From a virus (Duplodnaviria; Heunggongvirae; Uroviricota; Caudoviricetes), in IMG/VR virus record IMGVR_UViG_2585427768_000001, positions 1-11,761 of that record: 11,761 bases of DNA. One strand, written 5' to 3'. This document shows positions 2,376 through 11,761 of this stretch, piece by piece; the first letter of the stretch is position 1; the number at the start of each line of letters is the position of its first letter. The translations under genes and the position numbers were made by a program. The notes beneath the pieces are model-generated. The model worked only from the letters and a program-made list of their open reading frames with translations, searched no databases and was not told the DNA's origin.

Positions 2376-2567
2376 TTAAAGACCTGCCGGGATTTCGTTA
2401 TTATCCTGGTGAATAACTTTATCGACCGGGTAACAGTTACCGGGAATTTTCTGTTCGGTTGCTGCAGTCACACACTCCTGCATTGTCCTGTGAACACTGA
2501 CTGCAATATCAACTGGCTCTCCGGAAACAAGAAAAACTGTCAGAACAAGTGCAAATGCTGTATTCAT
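2376..2567 (-). CDS. Hypothetical small protein (63 aa) with hydrophobic N-terminal segment; racC/ydaE-position gene
   Basis: ATG at 2567..2565 overlaps the TGA of the upstream gene (ATGA coupling), with AGGA 8 nt upstream. Product MNTAFALVLTVFLVSGEPVDIAVSVHRTMQECVTAATEQKIPGNCYPVDKVIHQDNNEIPAGL. The track's longer 2376..2621 ORF has a poorly spaced SD. Confidence 0.5.
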   Translation of the reverse strand: MNTAFALVLTVFLVSGEPVDIAVSVHRTMQECVTAATEQKIPGNCYPVDKVIHQDNNEIPAGL

Positions 2568-2752
2568 TGCCAGCATCCTTTTTGTATCGGACGTAAACGG
2601 GCCAGCATTGAAAGAATGCATATTTTATTTAATAGCTCCCGTTCGTGTTTTCTCTTGTTAATGGCATCTTCAGTAAATACAGGGTTACTGATATTGACAC
2701 CAATTTCAAAACAACCTTCAGACGTATTAACGTTTGGTAATAACGTTTCCAT
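2564..2752 (-). CDS. Hypothetical small protein (62 aa); kilR-position gene of the leftward early operon
   Basis: ATG at 2752..2750 preceded by GAGGA with 7-8 nt spacing on the minus strand; product METLLPNVNTSEGCFEIGVNISNPVFTEDAINKRKHERELLNKICILSMLARLRPIQKGCWQ; stop overlaps the start of the next gene. Confidence 0.5.
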   Translation of the reverse strand: METLLPNVNTSEGCFEIGVNISNPVFTEDAINKRKHERELLNKICILSMLARLRPIQKGCWQ

Positions 2753-3004
2753 TATCGCGTCCTCAACAATGAATTTTGTGATGCGGTGCCTGGTGCCTCC
2801 AGGTGACGTTAACCAGTTAACAATTAACGCCGGATACAGAGAATCCACCCATAACACTGTTTTTGGTTTTAACTGTTCCGCGTGCGCTCAGCCGCATTCA
2901 CCACATCACAAAATTCACTTTAAAAAGGGCGGCAGAGCAGTCACGGAGTAAAACTGATACCGCCAAACGTCACCAGAAAATTGATAACAGAGGGCGTTGC
3001 AGCG

Positions 3005-4370: not shown

Positions 4371-4847
4371 TTAAGTTCCTGTCTTGGTGATGTTCTGGCT
4401 TTTCCGTTTTGATTCTTGATTTTTCAGATAGTTAGCTACCTTCATTTCCATTGCGGCAATGTAGGCGCGAACGTCATGATCAACCCAACTAGGCTCCGTA
4501 GCATTTCCAGATAAGATGAAAGCCACAATTGCTCTTTTTTCATCAGAGGCGGCTTGATAAAGGCTGTTTATGTCTAAAAGTTCACTTTTTGTATCTGAAG
4601 TGGATGGGGTTGGTATGGGGTATTCGTTAAGCCCCCAATGCTCTGGACCAACCACATCAGAAAAGAAACGCCATAGTTCTGGAAGTTTGTCTTTACTTAT
4701 CGAACCTTTCTTAATCCAGTCATGGATTGATGGTGGTTGGACTTTGAAATGACGTGCGATTTCCGCCTTTGATTTGACGGCTCCTGATGCAATTTTTTTG
4801 TTAATGGCCTGCTCTATCGCTCGGCCTAAGTCTTTACCACTAAGCAT
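4371..4847 (-). CDS. racR: Prophage repressor, RacR-like (158 aa, HTH)
   Basis: Track ORF MLSGKDLGRAIEQAINKK...; HTH-like segment KSKAEIARHFKVQPPSIHDWIKKG; divergent from the ydaS/ydaT-like genes, flanked by operator repeats. Size and organisation match Rac racR from memory, not verified by search. Confidence 0.7.
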   Translation of the reverse strand: MLSGKDLGRAIEQAINKKIASGAVKSKAEIARHFKVQPPSIHDWIKKGSISKDKLPELWRFFSDVVGPEHWGLNEYPIPTPSTSDTKSELLDINSLYQAASDEKRAIVAFILSGNATEPSWVDHDVRAYIAAMEMKVANYLKNQESKRKSQNITKTGT

Positions 4848-4971: not shown

Positions 4972-5295
4972 ATGAAAAAAGATAACTATTCATTCAAACG
5001 AGCTTGTGCTGTTGTCGGTGGGCAATCAGCAATGGCTAGGCTTTTAGGTGTATCTCCTCCAAGCGTAAATCAATGGATCAAAGGTGTACGTCAGTTACCT
5101 GCTGAGAGATGTCCTGCGATTGAACGAGCAACAAAAGGTGGTGTCCTGTGTGAAGAACTTCGTCCTGATGTTGATTGGACATACTTACGACGCTCGTCAT
5201 GTTATTCGCAGAATATGTCGATGAAGCAACCAAATGACGAAAACGATCATACCCGAAGCATCAAGAGGCAAATGATTCATGAAAATCAAACATGA
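4972..5295 (+). CDS. ydaS: Cro/YdaS-like HTH protein (107 aa)
   Basis: ATG 4972 with GGAG 8 nt upstream; in frame with track ORF 4951..5295. Product MKKDNYSFKRACAVVGGQSAMARLLGVSPPSVNQWIKGVRQLPAERCPAIERATKGG... has the YdaS/Cro-like HTH pattern; first gene from the pR-like promoter. Confidence 0.7.
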   Translation: MKKDNYSFKRACAVVGGQSAMARLLGVSPPSVNQWIKGVRQLPAERCPAIERATKGGVLCEELRPDVDWTYLRRSSCYSQNMSMKQPNDENDHTRSIKRQMIHENQT

Positions 5296-5704
5296 GCACA
5301 TCCGCATGGCGATGAATGCCTGGGCATACCCTGATGGTGAGAAAGTTCCTGCAGCTGAAATAGCCCGGACTTATTTCGAACTGGGGATGACGTTCCCTGA
5401 ACTGTACGACGACAGCCATCCGGAAGCCCTGGCCCGTAATACCCAGAAAATTTTCCGTTGGCTGGATAAAGACACCCCTGATGCTGTTGAAAAAATGCAG
5501 GCTCTGTTACCGGCGATCGAAAAGGCGATGCCGCCTTTGCTGGTGGCCCGTATGCGCAGCCACAGTTCTGAATATTACCGTGAGATCGTCGAACGGAGGG
5601 ATCGGCTGGGGAAGGATGTCGATGATTTTGTTGCGTCAGCGGTTGTTTTGTATGACCAGATGAATCGCGGCGGCCCGGCAGGGAATGCTGTGGTGATGCA
5701 CTAA
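5279..5704 (+). CDS. ydaT: YdaT-like protein (141 aa)
   Basis: Track ORF MKIKHEHIRMAMNAWAYPDGEKVPAAEIARTYFELGMTFPELYDD...; overlaps the 3' end of the ydaS-like gene by 17 nt; position and size match Rac ydaT. Confidence 0.65.
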   Translation: MKIKHEHIRMAMNAWAYPDGEKVPAAEIARTYFELGMTFPELYDDSHPEALARNTQKIFRWLDKDTPDAVEKMQALLPAIEKAMPPLLVARMRSHSSEYYREIVERRDRLGKDVDDFVASAVVLYDQMNRGGPAGNAVVMH

Positions 5705-5726
5705 AAGCACGGTGTTCGGGGGTTTT

Positions 5727-6689
5727 ATGAGCAGCAAGCTTCATGGTCTTGTCTGGGAAGGGTGCGCCTTCACCGGCATGATCTTATCCAGGGTGGCGGT
5801 TATGGCCCGTCTTGCAGACTACAGCAATGACGAGGGCGTGTCATGGCCTGCCATTGAAACTATCCGGCGTCAGATCGGTGCAAGAAGTGAATCCACAGTG
5901 AAATCGGCTATTGCAGAACTGGCGAAAGAGGGCTGGCTGACGAAGGAAGAGCGTAAGGTCGGTGGGCGTAATGTAAGCAATATCTATCGGCTTAATGTGG
6001 AAAAACTCGAAGCAGCTGCGGCGGCGGCGCGTGAGTCATATAAACCGAAAAGAAAAATTAGCCCGGCAAAAAATGACCCGTTAACAGTTGACCCGTCAAA
6101 TATTGACCCCTCAACGGTTGACCCGTCAAATTTTGATGGATCAACTGTTGATAAAAAACTGCCGATTAGGGGGGCGATGATTAACCCCGATCCGTCAGTA
6201 TTAAAACCTGATCCGTCAGATAAAAGATCTTCTTGTCCGGACGCTTCGCAACCGGACCCGCAGACGGCTGAACAGGATTTTTTAACCCGACACCCTGACG
6301 CGGTTGTGTTCAGTGCGAAAAAACGCCAGTGGGGAAGTCAGGAAGATTTGGTGTGCGCACAGTGGATCTGGGGACGAATCGTGAGTCTTTACGAGCAGGC
6401 GGCCAGCGATGATGGCGAGATCACTAGACCGAAAGAACCCAACTGGACAGCATGGGCCAATGACGTTCGCACAATGCGGATGCTGGATGGCAGAACTCAC
6501 AGACAAATTTGTGAAATGTTTGGGCGTCTCCAGCGGGATTCGTTCTGGGTAAAAAACATCATGAGTCCGGCAAAACTCCGGGAAAAATGGGATGAACTGG
6601 TTATCCGCCTGGGGCGTTCGCCTGCGCAGCGTTGCGTGAATCACATTTCTGAACCGGACACTGAAATTCCGCCGGGCTTCAGGGGGTAA
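5727..6689 (+). CDS. Phage replication initiator, O-like (N-terminal winged-helix DNA-binding domain), about 320 aa
   Basis: ATG 5727 with GGGGG 4 nt upstream (track uses GTG 5712). N-terminus MSSKLHGLVWEGCAFTGMILSRVAVMARLADYSNDEGVSWPAIETIRRQIGARSESTVKSAIAELAKEGWL resembles phage replication-initiator HTH domains. A DPS-repeat linker coincides with DNA-level iterons, as in lambda O. Confidence 0.65.
   Translation: MSSKLHGLVWEGCAFTGMILSRVAVMARLADYSNDEGVSWPAIETIRRQIGARSESTVKSAIAELAKEGWLTKEERKVGGRNVSNIYRLNVEKLEAAAAAARESYKPKRKISPAKNDPLTVDPSNIDPSTVDPSNFDGSTVDKKLPIRGAMINPDPSVLKPDPSDKRSSCPDASQPDPQTAEQDFLTRHPDAVVFSAKKRQWGSQEDLVCAQWIWGRIVSLYEQAASDDGEITRPKEPNWTAWANDVRTMRMLDGRTHRQICEMFGRLQRDSFWVKNIMSPAKLREKWDELVIRLGRSPAQRCVNHISEPDTEIPPGFRG
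6073..6148. repeat. Five tandem 15-bp-spaced iterons (core TTGAC-N2-GTCAA), putative prophage ori
   Basis: ATGACCCGTTAA (6073), TTGACCCGTCAA (6088), TTGACCCCTCAA (6103), TTGACCCGTCAA (6118), TTGATGGATCAA (6133), then an A-rich tract ATAAAAAA (6149..6158) and two more GATCCGTCAG copies (6189, 6211). Confidence 0.6.
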
Positions 6690-6729
6690 GTGTTAATTTC
6701 TGGTCATGAGGTAATTTTCAGGAGGGCTT

Positions 6730-7152
6730 GTGGCAAAAGTTTTTACACAAGAAGAGCGGGAAAAAATTAAAGGGCAGGTTGTTGAACTCGTACGCCAGAG
6801 TGGGCGCGAGACGTTACGACAACTGGAAACTAAAACTGGGGCAACAAGATATCTGATGAGCGTTCTGGCCAGAGAGCTGGTTGCCAGTGGCGATGTATAC
6901 AACTCTGGTTACGGGTTATTCCCGTCTGAACAGGCGCGTAAGGACTGGCAAAATGCCCGTAAAAAGCTCTCAAGGGCAAAGCTGAAGAAACCATCTGCGG
7001 TTGATCCGGACCTTATCTGGTCATTACCTGACGGAGAAATACGTCGCTACGACAGGCGTCAGAACATAATCTGTCGCGAGTGCCGGAAGAGCGAAGTTAT
7101 GCAGCGCATATTGTCGTTTTATCAGGGTAATTTTCAGAAGGTGCTGTTGTGA
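6730..7152 (+). CDS. Hypothetical protein (140 aa) downstream of the O-like initiator; no Walker A motif
   Basis: GTG 6730 preceded by AGGAGGG 3 nt upstream; product MAKVFTQEEREKIKGQVVELVRQSGRETLRQLETKTGATRYLMSVLARELVASGDVYNSGYG..., with CxxC near the C-terminus (CRECRK). Confidence 0.6.
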   Translation: MAKVFTQEEREKIKGQVVELVRQSGRETLRQLETKTGATRYLMSVLARELVASGDVYNSGYGLFPSEQARKDWQNARKKLSRAKLKKPSAVDPDLIWSLPDGEIRRYDRRQNIICRECRKSEVMQRILSFYQGNFQKVLL

Positions 7153-7257
7153 GCCAAATTAACAATCGGAACTTCGTGAAGAGAAAGCATAATCCAAATC
7201 TGAATAATTAAGTTCAGCACTGTAAATAAAATTTAATCCTTAACTGGAGGTATATCT

Positions 7258-7470
7258 ATGTCAAATACACAGAAAATTATTAACACTGAAAAATATAACG
7301 AGTGGGTGAAAAAATTCTCTGAACAGATTTTTAAAATTACTGGCGACGAGAATGTGGCAAAAAATGAATTAGAACCGTGGACACCTGAAGGAAACGCACC
7401 AAATTATTGCTGGTGGGAAGTTGATCCGGTTGATGCTGCAAATGAAGCCATGAGTTACCACAACGATTAA
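7258..7470 (+). CDS. Hypothetical small protein (70 aa), AT-rich accessory gene
   Basis: ATG 7258 with GGAGG 7 nt upstream; product MSNTQKIINTEKYNEWVKKFSEQIFKITGDENVAKNELEPWTPEGNAPNYCWWEVDPVDAANEAMSYHND. Confidence 0.6.
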   Translation: MSNTQKIINTEKYNEWVKKFSEQIFKITGDENVAKNELEPWTPEGNAPNYCWWEVDPVDAANEAMSYHND

Positions 7471-7479
7471 TGTCGGGAG

Positions 7480-7497
7480 GCCGCCCGAAAGGGCGGT
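7480..7497 (+). other. Stem-loop with GAAA tetraloop (CCGCCC-GAAA-GGGCGG) between an SD-like GGGAGG and the next start codon
   Basis: Read from sequence at 7481..7496; GGGAGG at 7475..7480; next ATG at 7503; no T-run after the stem. Confidence 0.5.
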
Positions 7498-7502
7498 AAG
7501 AA

Positions 7503-7721
7503 ATGACTACATTATTCAGAAAAGAATATCCGCAAAAAAGTAGAGCGACAGAATTTTTGTTTCTCATTCTGTTTATCGTATTGATGATACCGATATCCCC
7601 TCTAATTTTTGTCTGGGCAATCGGGAAAATAATTGAGCCAGTTACTGAATTGTATACCGACGTTGTATGGGCGTCGTTCAACACACTGCACAATAAAATT
7701 AATCCGTATAAGGAAAACTGA
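7503..7721 (+). CDS. Hypothetical single-pass membrane protein (72 aa)
   Basis: Track ORF; hydrophobic stretch FLFLILFIVLMIPISPLIFVWAIG; stop TGA 7719..7721 lies 1 nt before the next ATG. Confidence 0.55.
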   Translation: MTTLFRKEYPQKSRATEFLFLILFIVLMIPISPLIFVWAIGKIIEPVTELYTDVVWASFNTLHNKINPYKEN

Positions 7722-8585: not shown

Positions 8586-8796
8586 AAACGGTTTGCGGGA
8601 AAAGGAGAGTTAAGTAGAATTGCAGCGGGTGCTTGAGGCTATCTGTCTCAGGCATGAACACCAAAAGGCAGATAGAGAAAAGCCCCAGTTAACATTACGC
8701 GTCCGGCAAGACGCTTAACATTAATCTGAGGCCATATCTATGCTCTACACACGTAGGTTAGCCTCTTACGTGCCGAAAGGCAAGGAGAAGCAGGCT

Positions 8797-8952
8797 ATGA
8801 AGCAGCAAAAGGCGATGCTAATCGCCCTGATCGTCATCTGTTTAACCGTCATTGTGACGGCACTGGTAACGAGGAAAGACCTCTGCGAGGTACGAATCCG
8901 AACCGGCCAGACGGAGGTCGCTGTCTTCACAGCTTACGAACCTGAGGAGTAA
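8797..8952 (+). CDS. hok: Hok/Gef-family type I toxin (51 aa), HokD/RelF-like
   Basis: Product MKQQKAMLIALIVICLTVIVTALVTRKDLCEVRIRTGQTEVAVFTAYEPEE matches the Hok family signature; AAGGAG 9 nt upstream of ATG 8797. An in-frame upstream ATG at 8740 with its own GAGG SD gives the track's 70-aa form. Confidence 0.85.
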   Translation: MKQQKAMLIALIVICLTVIVTALVTRKDLCEVRIRTGQTEVAVFTAYEPEE

Positions 8953-9196: not shown

Positions 9197-9556
9197 ATGG
9201 CACTCACTGAATTCGGTAAGGCCGTTAGAAAAGCGAGGATCGATACTGACAGTACTCTTCTGACTATGTCTCAAGAACTGGGCACTACGCCAGCGTTTCT
9301 TAGCGGTTTAGAAACTGGTAGCAAAAAAATACCTCTGAAGTGGGTTAAGAAGATTGATTCTTACTTCAAGGCCAAAGGTGTAGAAATTGAAGGGTTACAG
9401 GAGCTAGCGGCAGTTGCGAATGACTCAGTTCCAGTAAACGGTTTGTCTCAGCAACAGAAAATGCTTGTAGCGGGATTCGCTAAGTCGCAGTTTACGCCGG
9501 AACAGCTAAAGAGTTTTGCAGATTTATTGCAAAAGATTAATAACAATGAGGGGTAA
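9197..9556 (+). CDS. XRE-family helix-turn-helix transcriptional regulator (119 aa)
   Basis: ATG 9197 with GAGG 8 nt upstream; N-terminal HTH_3-like segment LTEFGKAVRKARIDTDSTLLTMSQELGTTPAFLSGLETG followed by an extension of about 60 aa. Confidence 0.75.
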   Translation: MALTEFGKAVRKARIDTDSTLLTMSQELGTTPAFLSGLETGSKKIPLKWVKKIDSYFKAKGVEIEGLQELAAVANDSVPVNGLSQQQKMLVAGFAKSQFTPEQLKSFADLLQKINNNEG

Positions 9557-9558
9557 TT

Positions 9559-10035
9559 ATGTATCAAATGAGAGGTAACAGGGTGTCACCGATGCAAGAA
9601 GAAGAAATAGCCTACAGAGCTATAAACTTCTGTAATGCTATTGGTCTTACAGCCTCAAAGCGCAAAAGAAAGCGTTATGATATGTTCTTTGAAAGCCTGT
9701 CAATTTATGGGGTTACTCTTGACGTCAGGACCGACAAAGAGTGGGAGGCTCTGACGTATGATCTAACTATCGGACATTGTGACCCCGCTTCTCTAACAAT
9801 TACGGTTCCCAATAAAATATATGTGAATGCTTGCCTTGGGGAAGAGCATGCACTTGCTGTTATCTTCCACGAGCTAGGTCATTTGCTTCTTGGACACAAA
9901 GCAGTTTTACACTTTTCAGTTAAAGAACCTACTCGTATTGAGGATGCAGAATGGCAGGCAGATACATTTGCGGATATCGTACTGGAAACAATTGGCGTGA
10001 GAACACAACAGATGTCGTTCGATTTTTATATGTAA
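9559..10035 (+). CDS. ImmA/IrrE-family zinc metallopeptidase (158 aa; HExxH)
   Basis: ATG 9559 is 2 nt after the HTH gene stop, with GAGGGG 5 nt upstream; HExxH motif in HELGHLLLGH plus a downstream E/D-rich segment, typical of the ImmA/IrrE family. Confidence 0.75.
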   Translation: MYQMRGNRVSPMQEEEIAYRAINFCNAIGLTASKRKRKRYDMFFESLSIYGVTLDVRTDKEWEALTYDLTIGHCDPASLTITVPNKIYVNACLGEEHALAVIFHELGHLLLGHKAVLHFSVKEPTRIEDAEWQADTFADIVLETIGVRTQQMSFDFYM

Positions 10036-10747: not shown

Positions 10748-11291
10748 GTGCGGGTATTACTTCGACCTGTTCTGGTACCGGAACTCGGGCTGGTGATCGT
10801 TAAGCCGGGCCGTGAATCCATGCCGGTATTCCACAATACCCGGGTACTGGTGGAGCCGGAACCGAAAAGCATGCGTAATCTGTCGTCCGGGGTCGTTCCT
10901 GCCGTTCGCCAGCCGCTGGCGGAGGATAAATCATTACTGCCATTTTTCAGCGACGAACGAGTGATTCGTGCTGCTGGTGGCGCTGGCGCATTGTCTGACT
11001 GGTTACTGCGCCATGTTAAATCCTGCCAGTGGCCACACGGCGATTATCACCACAGTGAAACCGTCATTCACCGTTATGGTACCGGCGCAATGGTGTTGTG
11101 CTGGCACTGCGACAACCAGCTGCGCGACCAGACCTCCGAATCACTCGGGCAACTTGCTCACCAAAACCTGTCTGCATGGATGATTGACGTCATACGCCAT
11201 GCAATGAATGGCTCGCAGGAACGGGAATTATCGCTGGCTGAATTATCCTGGTGGGCGGTCCGCAATCAGGTGGCGGACGCGCTACCGGAAG
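10748..11291 (+). pseudogene. DUF968-like (YdfU-like) Cys/His-rich protein gene, 3' part removed by IS insertion
   Basis: GTG 10748 with GGAGG 4 nt upstream, overlapping the upstream stop; Cys/His motif CQWPHGDYHH...CWHCDNQ; the frame runs into the IS terminal repeat at 11292, so the track ORF tail after ...ADALPEV is IS-derived. Confidence 0.55.

Positions 11292-11761
<470 letters not shown>

What the first reader, a model, noticed from the sequence alone, without database searches (positions are those of the whole stretch)
6730..7152. No recognisable helicase loader after the O-like initiator
Lambdoid replication modules normally pair the initiator with a P-like or DnaC-like loader, as I recall ydaV in K-12 Rac being DnaC-like. 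Here the next gene is a 140-aa protein with no Walker A motif and an N-terminal region that may be helix-turn-helix, followed directly by AT-rich accessory genes. Either the loader is absent, with the initiator recruiting host DnaC/DnaB, or this small protein is an unusual replication accessory factor.
Basis: inference. Interest (0 to 1): 0.4.

Follow-up and report, generated by a model that had tools for sequence, protein, structure and literature searches.

The report
Loader-less lambdoid replication module, Ren-like gene
The 140-residue gene after the prophage's replication initiator is an ordinary relative of phage lambda's Ren protein and not a hidden helicase loader; the loader is really missing, as in about a tenth of lambda-like phages, and the initiator ends in a copy of the tail of the host protein DnaT, which may be how it borrows the host's loading machinery.

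Summary
Window 6730-7152 (+) is a real 140-aa gene (GTG start, AGGAGG 4 nt upstream) with no P-loop and a confident N-terminal winged helix.

It is not a loader. It is a full-length DUF977 / "LygF" / Ren-like protein. Profile comparison links it to lambda Ren (96.6%) and not to P, DnaC or DnaB (5% or less). It sits where ren sits.

No P, DnaC-like or DnaB-like sequence occurs in any frame of the window. Sister prophages with a 99.6%-identical initiator gene carry a dnaC-like gene plus a DUF1627 gene between the initiator and DUF977. The window is therefore a loader-less variant.

The same 40-nt initiator-DUF977 junction follows three different initiator bodies, including phage Tritos, which plaques on K-12. 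O-only modules are a published but unexplained class (34 of 314 lambdoids).

The new lead is the initiator's last 20 residues, which copy the host DnaT C-terminal tail. In my surveys this tail accompanied a dnaC-like gene or no loader at all, and never P.

My best reading is that the initiator recruits host DnaB-DnaC through this tail. This is an inference, not a demonstrated mechanism. The gene itself is ordinary; the tail lead is moderately interesting.

The parts
4371..4847 (-). racR-type prophage repressor (immunity region, left of the replication operon)
   Evidence: NCBIfam TransRepsrRacR E 1.2e-73, above its cut-off; RefSeq annotation of an identical locus
4972..5295 (+). ydaS / Cro-like HTH regulator, first gene of the rightward operon
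   Evidence: Pfam YdaS_toxin E 4.6e-30 and P22_Cro E 1e-8; coordinates from RefSeq CDS in L093
5279..5704 (+). ydaT / CII-like protein
   Evidence: Pfam YdaT_toxin E 3e-10; PHROG 163 'CII-like transcriptional activator' E 1e-46
5727..6689 (+). Replication initiator, 320 aa. It has an N-terminal HTH_36 winged helix, a Pro/Ser-rich linker encoded by the iterons, a lambda-O-like C-terminal domain and a DnaT-like tail.
   Evidence: PHROG 391 'replication initiation O-like' E 4e-115; Pfam HTH_36; residues 182-300 38.7% identical to lambda O, E 1e-18; C-terminal half also hits 'DnaD-like helicase loader' PHROGs 2514 and 1701
6068..6152 (.). Putative origin: 4-5 iterons of TTGACCCGTCAA-like sequence at 15-bp spacing, forming a 33-nt imperfect inverted repeat, inside the initiator gene as in lambda ori
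   Evidence: the repeat finder families D1/D2 and inverted pair I1; lambda iterons lie inside O. Origin function is inferred.
6627..6686 (+). Codons for the last 20 residues QRCVNHISEPDTEIPPGFRG, a copy of the host DnaT C-terminal tail ([20 protein letters not shown])
   Evidence: BLASTP to K-12 DnaT 14/20 identical, E 1e-7; NCBIfam DnaT model positions 159-179 only; PDB DnaT chains 2ru8, 6aep and 9zbt match only here; DNA similarity to Tritos and Evi begins exactly at 6627
6690..6729 (+). 40-nt initiator-DUF977 junction with a three-codon mini-ORF ATG-AGG-TAA (6706-6714) and Shine-Dalgarno AGGAGG (6720-6725)
   Evidence: Read from the sequence. The junction is conserved with 4-8 substitutions in its 40 nt behind three different initiator bodies. 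Its 3' part aligns to the end of the dnaC-like gene plus its RBS in L295 (window 6707-6761, 81.8%) and its ATG context resembles the dnaC-like start. The 'deletion remnant' reading is an inference.
6730..7152 (+). The finding: a 140-aa DUF977 / LygF / Ren-like winged-helix protein, a positional and sequence homologue of lambda ren
   Evidence: Pfam PF06163 full length, 109.7 bits against a cut-off of 22.1; PHROG 142 E 2.8e-47; hhalign to the Ren alignment 96.6%, E 4.9e-10, over 89 columns; AlphaFold2 and Foldseek winged helix
7153..8505 (+). AT-rich block of five small accessory ORFs (70, 72 [DUF4014], 87, 55 and 114 aa). None resembles a replication protein.
   Evidence: Pfam, NCBIfam, PHROG and PADLOC scans; GC 0.35-0.45

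Best explanation
The 140-aa gene encodes a Ren-family (DUF977/LygF) protein. It has an N-terminal winged helix and the conserved C-terminal 'CRECRxS..MQRIL.FY' helix shared with lambda Ren, and it occupies the ren position at the end of the replication operon. It is not a helicase loader. By homology its likely role is an optional accessory of the phage replication complex: anti-exclusion (Ren-like) or DNA binding. The replication module here is truly loader-less, an 'O-only' module. The initiator binds the iterons inside its own gene through its N-terminal winged helix. It has a lambda-O/replisome-organiser-type C-terminal domain, and it ends in a 19-20-residue peptide that copies the C-terminal tail of host DnaT (R-[DC]-[VPI]-N-x-[IV]-S-x-P-D-x-x-[IV]-P-x-G-F-R-G-COOH). 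I propose that this tail docks the initiator-origin complex onto the host DnaB-DnaC helicase-loader complex, so that host DnaC does the job done in sister prophages by a phage-encoded DnaC paralogue about 48% identical to DnaC. What is shown: family assignment, absence of a loader, existence of loader-containing sisters, occurrence of the same junction in viable phages, and the tail's association with DnaC-type or no loader. What is inferred: the tail's binding partner and the function of DUF977.
For: DUF977/Ren identity comes. There is no similarity to P, DnaC, DnaB or DnaT and no P-loop. The winged-helix model is, matching Kinch et al. 2009. Ren/DUF977 genes follow 38/50 P-type, 30/53 DnaC-type and 31/39 loader-less modules, so they are frequent but optional in every class. 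LygF also follows exoVIII in PhiR46_1, a phage with a primase-type gene. No loader is present in the window or in the int-to-Q region of an identical prophage. The sister locus L113 has an initiator gene 99.6% identical, followed by a 248-aa IstB_IS21/DnaC-family gene, a DUF1627 gene and then DUF977. The same 40-nt junction occurs in Tritos, Evi, HannyBb and mEp460_ev081, and Tritos forms plaques and was propagated on MG1655 hsdR- (PMC9928086). O-only modules are 34 of 314 lambdoids and 'not yet understood' (PMC12315714). The studied O-only phage LLS has an O protein ending ...VDTKIPEGFRG. On the tail: 14/20 residues are identical to DnaT. Positions not fixed by my search pattern (R-19, N-16, [IV]-14, S-13) are also conserved across 42 distinct tails. 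Of 111 tail-bearing initiators with enough downstream sequence, 67 are followed by a dnaC-like gene (start 3 nt before to 7 nt after the initiator's stop codon in nearly all; one truncated copy at 238 nt), 37 directly by DUF977, 7 by no loader, and none by P or DnaB. Among lambda-O-CTD initiators, the DnaT tail goes with P in 0/29 and the lambda-type end in 61/61 (unique CTDs 0/10 against 24/24). The host dnaT and dnaC genes are themselves adjacent with a 2-nt gap.
Against: No experiment or structure shows what the DnaT tail binds. The reviews state that no DnaT-DnaC interaction has been documented (PMC5778457). A 2026 cryo-EM paper suggests the DnaT N-terminal domain, not the tail, may recruit DnaB/DnaC. 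Removing DnaT residues 154-179 only modestly lowered ssDNA binding and cooperativity (PMC4132743). The surveys are pattern-selected, capped at 120 loci each, and dominated by related E. coli prophages, so the counts are not independent. The tail also occurs when a phage DnaC is present, so it does not by itself replace a loader. The Tritos test host, MG1655, carries Rac ydaV, so complementation by a resident prophage loader is not excluded. The function of DUF977 is inferred only from distant homology to Ren, whose own mechanism is unknown.
Confidence: 0.6

Rival explanations
1. The DnaT-like tail mimics DnaT within the restart preprimosome. It would dock the initiator-origin complex onto host PriA (or PriB), so that helicase loading proceeds through the PriA pathway rather than by direct contact with DnaB-DnaC.
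For: In the 2026 preprimosome structures the DnaT C-terminal domain docks on PriA HD2/CTD through a conserved hydrophobic interface. The tail (acidic residues, then IP.GF near the C-terminus) loosely resembles the SSB C-terminal peptide ...DDDIPF that PriA binds (peptide quoted in PMC4129139; the resemblance is my own reading). A subset of phage initiators carries the whole DnaT C-terminal domain at 61-63% identity.
Against: The text of that paper does not say the extreme tail forms the PriA interface. The tail's tight linkage to translationally coupled dnaC-like genes points to the loader step. Most tail-bearing initiators, including this one, share only the tail with DnaT and not the ssDNA-binding helical bundle.
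Confidence: 0.2
2. This particular prophage is simply replication-defective. It lost its dnaC-like and DUF1627 genes by deletion, and the arrangement has no functional meaning.
For: Sister prophages with a 99.6%-identical initiator gene keep the two genes. The junction contains a three-codon ATG-AGG-TAA mini-ORF that looks like the start joined to the end of a dnaC-like gene. The window's prophage shows other decay: an rve-type transposase fragment truncates the DUF968 gene, and ydfD has an internal stop in the identical relative.
Against: The same junction, diverged by 4-8 substitutions in its 40 nt and therefore old, lies behind three unrelated initiator bodies in isolated phages (Tritos, Evi, HannyBb, mEp460_ev081). 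Tritos plaques on K-12. O-only modules make up 11% of lambdoid phages, including the plaque-forming LLS. The DUF977 alleles flanking the two arrangements differ (89.6% identity), which indicates module exchange rather than a recent deletion.
Confidence: 0.15
3. The DUF977 protein is itself the missing replication partner: a non-AAA+ loader or adaptor comparable to lambda P or DciA that links the initiator to DnaB.
For: It is the gene directly after the initiator and is preceded by a strong ribosome-binding site 40 nt after the initiator's stop codon. It is somewhat more frequent after loader-less modules (31/39) than after DnaC-type (30/53). Lambda ren is described as 'likely involved in DNA replication', and Ren and O interact with Rex proteins in two-hybrid tests (bioRxiv 2021.04.19.439022).
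Against: hhalign probabilities to P, DnaC and DnaB are 5.2%, 0.2% and 0.3%. The same gene follows complete modules that already encode P or DnaC-like loaders. 8 of 39 loader-less modules lack it, including LLS, PhiR49_1 and Eeyore. The confidently modelled part (residues 1-83) is a generic winged-helix DNA-binding domain. From established knowledge, lambda ren is dispensable for lambda replication.
Confidence: 0.05

Closest known systems
Lambda Ren (ren, lambdap62; PHROG 142 'Ren-like exclusion protein')
   Same: Same position: last gene of the replication block, directly after the replication genes in the rightward operon. It shares the C-terminal motif (45% identity over 20 aa) and full-length profile homology (96.6%).
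   Different: DUF977 is 140 aa against 96 aa for Ren, with about 45 extra residues between the winged helix and the C-terminal helix. Pairwise similarity outside the C-terminus is undetectable. Here it follows a loader-less module rather than P. Resistance to Rex exclusion was not tested.
LygF / DUF977 (PF06163) genes of Rac-SA53, Stx phage 75/02, Tritos and HannyBb
   Same: 65-94% identical proteins of the same length and the same family. Tritos, Evi, HannyBb and ev081 have the identical initiator-tail / 40-nt / DUF977 junction.
   Different: In Rac-SA53 and 75/02 Stx the gene is separated from the initiator by a DnaC-like gene and a DUF1627 gene. In PhiR46_1 it follows an exonuclease VIII gene.
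O-only lambdoid replication modules (phage LLS and 34 of 314 Enterobacteriales lambdoids; Genome Res 2025, PMC12315714)
   Same: A single O-family initiator with no P, DnaC-like or DnaB-like gene. LLS O has the same N-terminal HTH_36 domain and a tail of the same class...IPEGFRG.
   Different: LLS O is followed by a methyltransferase gene, not DUF977. Its C-terminal domain hits Pfam Phg_2220_C, which the window initiator does not reach. That paper does not mention DnaT (term count 0).
K-12 Rac ydaU-ydaV-ydaW
   Same: Same racR/ydaS/ydaT immunity context. YdaU ends in the same DnaT-like tail (13/19 identical).
   Different: YdaU is a DUF1376 protein otherwise unrelated to this initiator. K-12 Rac keeps the DnaC-like ydaV. 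K-12 ydaW is not similar to the 140-aa protein (E 8.7), and K-12 Rac is truncated after ydaW, so it has no DUF977 gene.
Host DnaT-DnaC (dnaT-dnaC operon)
   Same: The tail sequence is shared. The gene order 'tail-bearing protein, then a DnaC-family gene 2-7 nt later' is the same in the host and in sister prophages.
   Different: The window initiator shares only the last 20 residues or so with DnaT. It lacks the DnaT N-terminal domain and, by sequence, its ssDNA-binding bundle, and it has no adjacent dnaC-like gene.

Membership tests
DUF977 (Pfam PF06163) / Ren-like exclusion protein (PHROG 142) | Full-length match to the family profile above the curated threshold | tested here: met
   PF06163: 109.7 bits against a cut-off of 22.1, residues 1-136 on profile positions 1-134 of 134. 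PHROG 142 E 2.8e-47.
DUF977 (Pfam PF06163) / Ren-like exclusion protein (PHROG 142) | Homology to lambda Ren itself | tested here: met
   BLASTP finds only the C-terminal 20 aa (45%, E 5e-6). hhalign of 95 DUF977 sequences against 23 Ren sequences gives 96.6% probability, E 4.9e-10, covering DUF977 15-132 and Ren 5-93.
DUF977 (Pfam PF06163) / Ren-like exclusion protein (PHROG 142) | N-terminal winged-helix fold | tested here: met
   AlphaFold2 pLDDT 80-96 for residues 1-83 with H-H-H-wing-H topology. Foldseek top hits are winged-helix regulators, though only at E 0.018-0.1. This agrees with HHpred/COMPASS results in PMC2686095.
DUF977 (Pfam PF06163) / Ren-like exclusion protein (PHROG 142) | Protection of the phage from Rex-type exclusion (the phenotype that defines ren) | not testable with these tools
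   This needs plating of a DUF977-deleted phage on rexAB+ lysogens.
Helicase loaders: DnaC/IstB AAA+ (PF01695), lambda P (PF06992), DnaB-type helicase | Sequence or profile similarity to the family, and a P-loop for the AAA+ or RecA-type members | tested here: not met
   No Pfam, NCBIfam or PHROG hit to these families. phmmer against P, DnaC, YdaV and DnaT gives E >= 0.3. hhalign gives 5.2% (P), 0.2% (DnaC) and 0.3% (DnaB). There is no P-loop. As a positive control, the sister-locus 248-aa protein hits IstB_IS21 at E 7e-19.
O-only lambdoid replication module (PMC12315714) | An O-family initiator is present and no helicase or loader gene lies in the module | tested here: met
   Initiator. Six-frame tblastn of the window with P, DnaC and DnaB references is negative. 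The RefSeq annotation from int to Q of an identical prophage lists no loader.
O-only lambdoid replication module (PMC12315714) | The phage is replication-competent without a phage-encoded loader | tested here: inconclusive
   This cannot be tested for this prophage. Phages sharing the junction (Tritos) or the class (LLS) form plaques on K-12, but K-12 carries Rac ydaV.
Lambda-O-type initiator | N-terminal origin-binding domain, iterons inside the gene, and a C-terminal O-like domain | tested here: met
   HTH_36; a 15-bp-spaced iteron array at 6068-6152; residues 182-300 are 38.7% identical to lambda O. The N-terminal domain is HTH_36, not Pfam Phage_rep_O as in lambda. It is therefore O-like in architecture and in its C-terminal domain only.
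DnaT (primosomal protein I) | DnaT N-terminal domain, three-helix ssDNA-binding C-terminal domain, and C-terminal tail | tested here: not met
   Only the tail matches: NCBIfam DnaT model positions 159-179, 16.7 bits against a cut-off of 201; BLASTP covers 20 aa; PDB DnaT chains match only at residues 300-320. The 'primosomal protein I' labels in phage records reflect the tail.

The most novel reading that the evidence does not exclude
The conserved 19-20-residue C-terminal tail shared by host DnaT and many otherwise unrelated lambdoid initiators may be a portable helicase-recruitment peptide for the DnaC-type loading system. It would explain how O-only lambdoid phages replicate, by plugging straight into host DnaB-DnaC. 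It would also identify the still-unknown element by which DnaT hands off to DnaB-DnaC in replication restart. A further implication is that the host dnaT-dnaC operon descends from a phage 'initiator-tail + dnaC' module.
Probability: 0.4. Interest if true: 0.7.

Novelty: new member of a known kind. Interest (0 to 1): 0.4.

Why it matters
The gene in the finding is ordinary: an already annotated DUF977/Ren-like gene. The context, however, touches two explicitly open questions. A 2025 survey states that replication of O-only lambdoid phages (11% of its panel) is 'not yet understood'. Reviews and a 2026 cryo-EM paper state that how DnaT recruits DnaB-DnaC is unknown. In my surveys a DnaT-type tail occurred only with DnaC-type loaders or with none, and a lambda-type end only with P. 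This gives both questions a short, directly testable candidate element. It also shows that loader genes are exchangeable cassettes between a conserved tail and a conserved Ren/DUF977 gene.

Tried and rejected
1. Direct comparison of the 140-aa protein with K-12 YdaW found no similarity (E 8.7). K-12 'ydaW' is the DUF1627-type gene, not DUF977.

2. PDB sequence search with the 140-aa protein gave only chance hits (E >= 0.18).

3. PADLOC defence models gave no hit for DUF977 or the five small ORFs.

4. The promoter/terminator scan of 6500-7600 found nothing above the shuffled expectation.

5. The search for homologous proteins returned only relatives at 89% identity or more among the 120 listed. 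The structure was therefore modelled from a shallow alignment, and its C-terminal third is of low confidence.

6. Literature searches for the PPGFRG motif, YdaU/YdaV and 'initiator-solo' found no paper on the tail. The DnaT papers I read do not assign a partner to residues 154-179.

7. My first Walker-A pattern would have missed DnaC's GKN variant, so I repeated the scan with a relaxed pattern. It was still negative.

9. I considered and rejected the idea that a loader lies elsewhere in the prophage.
Full report
**What the window is.** The window is the immunity and early-right region of a Rac-like lambdoid prophage of E. coli. A 4.3-kb stretch around the finding is 100% identical to several complete E. 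coli chromosomes. In one of these, strain AST198, the prophage lies next to ompW. Its annotation reads, in order: integrase, excisionase, a 3'-5' exonuclease, dicB, racR, then rightward an HTH (ydaS-like) gene, a YdaT-family gene, a 320-aa 'helix-turn-helix domain-containing protein', a 'DUF977 family protein', five small hypothetical genes, hokD, an HTH/ImmA pair, DUF968, RusA and an antiterminator. My family scans agree with this: RacR (NCBIfam E 1e-73), YdaS/Cro-like, YdaT/CII-like and an O-like initiator (PHROG 391, E 4e-115).

**The observation.** The ORF at 6730-7152 is real. It starts with GTG, four bases after an AGGAGG at 6720-6725. Sister alleles start with ATG at the same codon, and RefSeq calls exactly this CDS. 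It has no P-loop, even under a relaxed pattern that accepts DnaC's GKN variant. No open frame longer than 23 aa anywhere in the window has one either.

An AlphaFold2 model has mean pLDDT 76.5, with residues 1-83 at 80-96 and the C-terminal third weak. It gives three helices, a beta wing and a fourth helix. The top Foldseek hits in the PDB are GntR, IclR, ArsR and MarR winged-helix regulators, though only at E 0.018-0.1. This matches an earlier HHpred/COMPASS assignment of DUF977 as a winged helix (PMC2686095). GC content drops to 0.35-0.41 just downstream.

**What the 140-aa protein is.** It is a full-length member of Pfam DUF977 (109.7 bits against a cut-off of 22.1) and of PHROG 142, 'Ren-like exclusion protein' (E 3e-47). 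Phage records call it LygF or Ren-like exclusion protein, and 24 phage genomes encode a copy at 65-98% identity.

Pairwise BLASTP to lambda Ren finds only the C-terminal 20 residues: NIICRECRKSEVMQRILSFY against NLVFKECRQSAAMKRVLAVY. I then compared a profile of 95 DUF977 sequences with a profile of 23 Ren sequences, all collected from the fetched loci. This gives 96.6% probability (E 5e-10) across essentially the whole of Ren. The same profile scores 5.2% against P, 0.2% against DnaC-like and 0.3% against DnaB. The protein is not similar to K-12 YdaW. The 256-aa 'ydaW-like' gene of related phages is a DUF1627 protein.

**Where the gene sits in other phages.** In lambda, ren directly follows P. 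Across the loci I surveyed, a Ren or DUF977 gene lies within 2.3 kb after the initiator in the following proportions:

| Module type | Loci with a Ren/DUF977 gene |
|---|---|
| P-type | 38 of 50 |
| DnaC-type | 30 of 53 |
| Loader-less | 31 of 39 |

In Rac-SA53 and Stx phage 75/02 the gene follows initiator + DnaC-like + DUF1627. In PhiR46_1 it follows an exonuclease VIII gene, in a phage whose replication gene is a large primase. Loader-less phages such as LLS, PhiR49_1 and Eeyore lack it altogether. A gene that is optional in every class, and that accompanies complete loader-containing modules, is not the loader. Its function is still unknown. One group describes lambda ren as 'likely involved in DNA replication' and reports two-hybrid interactions of Rex proteins with O and Ren. 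A replication-associated, anti-exclusion or DNA-binding accessory role is therefore the best guess.

**Is the loader really missing?** Yes. tblastn with lambda P, E. coli DnaC, Rac YdaV, a Stx-phage DnaC, E. coli DnaB and P22 gp12 finds nothing in any frame of the 11.8-kb window. The annotation of the identical prophage from int to Q lists no loader.

The absence is also specific to this variant. Locus L113 has an initiator gene 99.6% identical to window 5700-6687. Its similarity to the window stops at the stop codon. It then carries a 248-aa IstB_IS21/DnaC-family gene starting 7 nt after the stop, a 256-aa DUF1627 gene, and then DUF977, whose allele is 89.6% identical at the DNA level to the window's. 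Among surveyed loci carrying this initiator type, 24 have the dnaC-like gene and 19 go straight to DUF977.

**The junction.** The window's 40-nt spacer reads GTGTTAATTTCTGGTCATGAGGTAATTTTCAGGAGGGCTT. It contains a three-codon ATG-AGG-TAA mini-ORF. Its 3' part aligns with the last codons, stop and ribosome-binding site of the dnaC-like gene in loci where DUF977 follows that gene directly. Its ATG context resembles the dnaC-like start. I read this as the scar of an old internal deletion of the loader gene. That is an inference.

The deletion is old and has been successful. The same spacer, with 4-8 substitutions in its 40 nt, lies behind three different initiator bodies: the window type, the HannyBb/mEp460_ev081 type, and the Tritos/Evi replisome-organiser type. 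For Tritos and Evi, similarity to the window begins exactly at the tail codons, at 6627. Tritos is a prophage of strain LF82 that produces virions, formed a plaque on MG1655 hsdR- and was propagated on that strain (PMC9928086). HannyBb's record names bird faeces as its source and E. coli as its host.

A 2025 survey states independently that the replication module of phage LLS contains only an O homologue.

**The lead: a DnaT-like tail on the initiator.** The initiator has four parts:
- an N-terminal HTH_36 winged helix;
- a linker encoded by a 15-bp-spaced iteron array (6068-6152), which is the probable origin;
- a C-terminal domain 38.7% identical to that of lambda O, which also hits 'DnaD-like helicase loader / replisome organiser' PHROGs;
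- a final 20 residues, QRCVNHISEPDTEIPPGFRG, matching the extreme C-terminus of host DnaT, [20 protein letters not shown] (14/20 identical).

These rest. Only the tail matches DnaT.

The same tail ends K-12 Rac YdaU (a DUF1376 protein), the Stx 75/02 'primosomal protein I', the Tritos replication protein, PhiR49_1 O, Eeyore and LLS O. Lambda O lacks it. Across 42 distinct tails the motif is R-[DC]-[VPI]-N-x-[IV]-S-x-P-D-x-x-[IV]-P-x-G-F-R-G-COOH. It includes four conserved positions that my search pattern did not fix.

**Two surveys of IMG/VR contigs.** Among loci carrying the lambda-O C-terminal motif PAKLR[DE]KW, every initiator with the lambda-type end (...TDWIYGVDL) is followed by P: 61 of 61 loci, or 24 of 24 distinct C-terminal sequences. 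None with the DnaT-type tail is: 0 of 29 loci, or 0 of 10 distinct sequences.

The second survey took 111 loci with a tail-bearing initiator of any body type and at least 900 nt of downstream sequence:

| Gene following the tail-bearing initiator | Loci |
|---|---|
| dnaC-like gene (start 3 nt before to 7 nt after the stop in nearly all; one truncated copy at 238 nt) | 67 |
| DUF977, directly | 37 |
| No loader within 3.5 kb | 7 |
| P or a DnaB-type helicase | 0 |

The phage DnaC-like proteins have a median identity of about 48% to host DnaC. The host genes dnaT and dnaC are adjacent with a 2-nt gap, the same layout as 'tail-bearing initiator, then dnaC-like'.

These counts are pattern-selected, capped at 120 loci per scan and phylogenetically non-independent. 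They establish a consistent association, not a statistical proof.

**Mechanism proposed.** The terminal peptide of the initiator appears to be the loader-type specificity element. A lambda-type end couples to P. A DnaT-type end couples to the DnaC system. Where the phage has lost its own dnaC paralogue, as here, the same tail would let the origin-bound initiator engage the host DnaB-DnaC complex.

The partner of the tail is not known. Reviews state that no DnaT-DnaC interaction has been documented and that how DnaT recruits DnaB-DnaC is unknown. Truncating DnaT residues 154-179 only modestly affected ssDNA binding. The 2026 preprimosome structures show the DnaT C-terminal domain docked on PriA, and those authors speculate that the N-terminal domain recruits DnaB-DnaC. 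The main rival is therefore that the tail targets PriA or PriB. A second rival is that this particular prophage is simply defective. It does show other decay: a transposase fragment truncates DUF968. However, the module itself works in plaque-forming phages.

**Verdict.** The finding's gene is an ordinary, already annotated Ren-family gene. The missing loader is real and belongs to a known but unexplained class of lambdoid replication modules. The most interesting result lies just outside the given coordinates, in the last 60 bases of the initiator gene.

Noticed in passing
window 6627-6686; also L005 (K-12 ydaU), L002, L003, L089, L092, L312: A conserved C-terminal peptide of about 20 residues (...R[DC]VNx[IV]SxPDxx[IV]PxGFRG-COOH) is shared by host DnaT and by phage initiators with at least four unrelated body types. 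It occurred with dnaC-like loaders or none, and never with P.
   Followed up: yes
L259, L277, L287 (about 270-aa ORFs ending at the tail); L251: Some viral contigs encode replisome-organiser-type proteins whose C-terminal 95 residues or so are 61-63% identical to the whole DnaT C-terminal domain (residues 83-179). In all, 28 of 123 tail-bearing initiators align to DnaT beyond the tail. This suggests that the DnaT C-terminal domain belongs to a phage-initiator domain family.
   Followed up: partly
window 6710-6725 and 7126-7141: A 16-nt direct repeat, GGTAATTTTCAGGAGG and GGTAATTTTCAGAAGG, lies just before the DUF977 start and again just before its stop (family D5). It looks like a recurring gene-boundary/RBS cassette that could mediate the module exchanges seen at these junctions.
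   Followed up: partly
window 11334-11744 (-) and 10748-11452 (+): A fragment of an rve-type (IS3-like) transposase (Pfam rve E 3e-14) abuts the DUF968 gene. That gene is cut to 234 aa here, against 348 aa in the otherwise identical AST198 prophage. The window's prophage therefore carries an IS insertion.
   Followed up: partly
window 8627-8802 (+) and 8740-8952 (+): A hok/sok type I toxin-antitoxin locus: Rfam sok at 117 bits, overlapping a Hok/Gef-family ORF (Pfam E 3e-23).
   Followed up: no
window 2927-2978 (-), 2564-2857 (-), 2376-2621 (-): DicF antisense sRNA (Rfam 76.7 bits) lies upstream of dicB (Pfam DicB E 4e-36) and a DUF1482/ydfD gene. This is the Qin/Rac-type cell-division inhibition cassette.
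   Followed up: no
L113 7087-7857 and equivalent positions in many loci: A 256-aa DUF1627 protein (Pfam E 1e-98) with N-terminal HTH-like segments lies between the dnaC-like gene and DUF977 in most loader-containing sister modules. Some modules have DUF977 directly after the dnaC-like gene instead (for example L276 and L295). It is lost together with the loader in the window's variant, and its function is unknown.
   Followed up: no
window 9197-9556 and 9559-10035 (+): An HTH / ImmA-IrrE metallopeptidase gene pair (Pfam Peptidase_M78; weak PADLOC capH/capP and RmrA hits) sits in the middle of the early-right operon. It could be a second regulatory or anti-defence switch.
   Followed up: no
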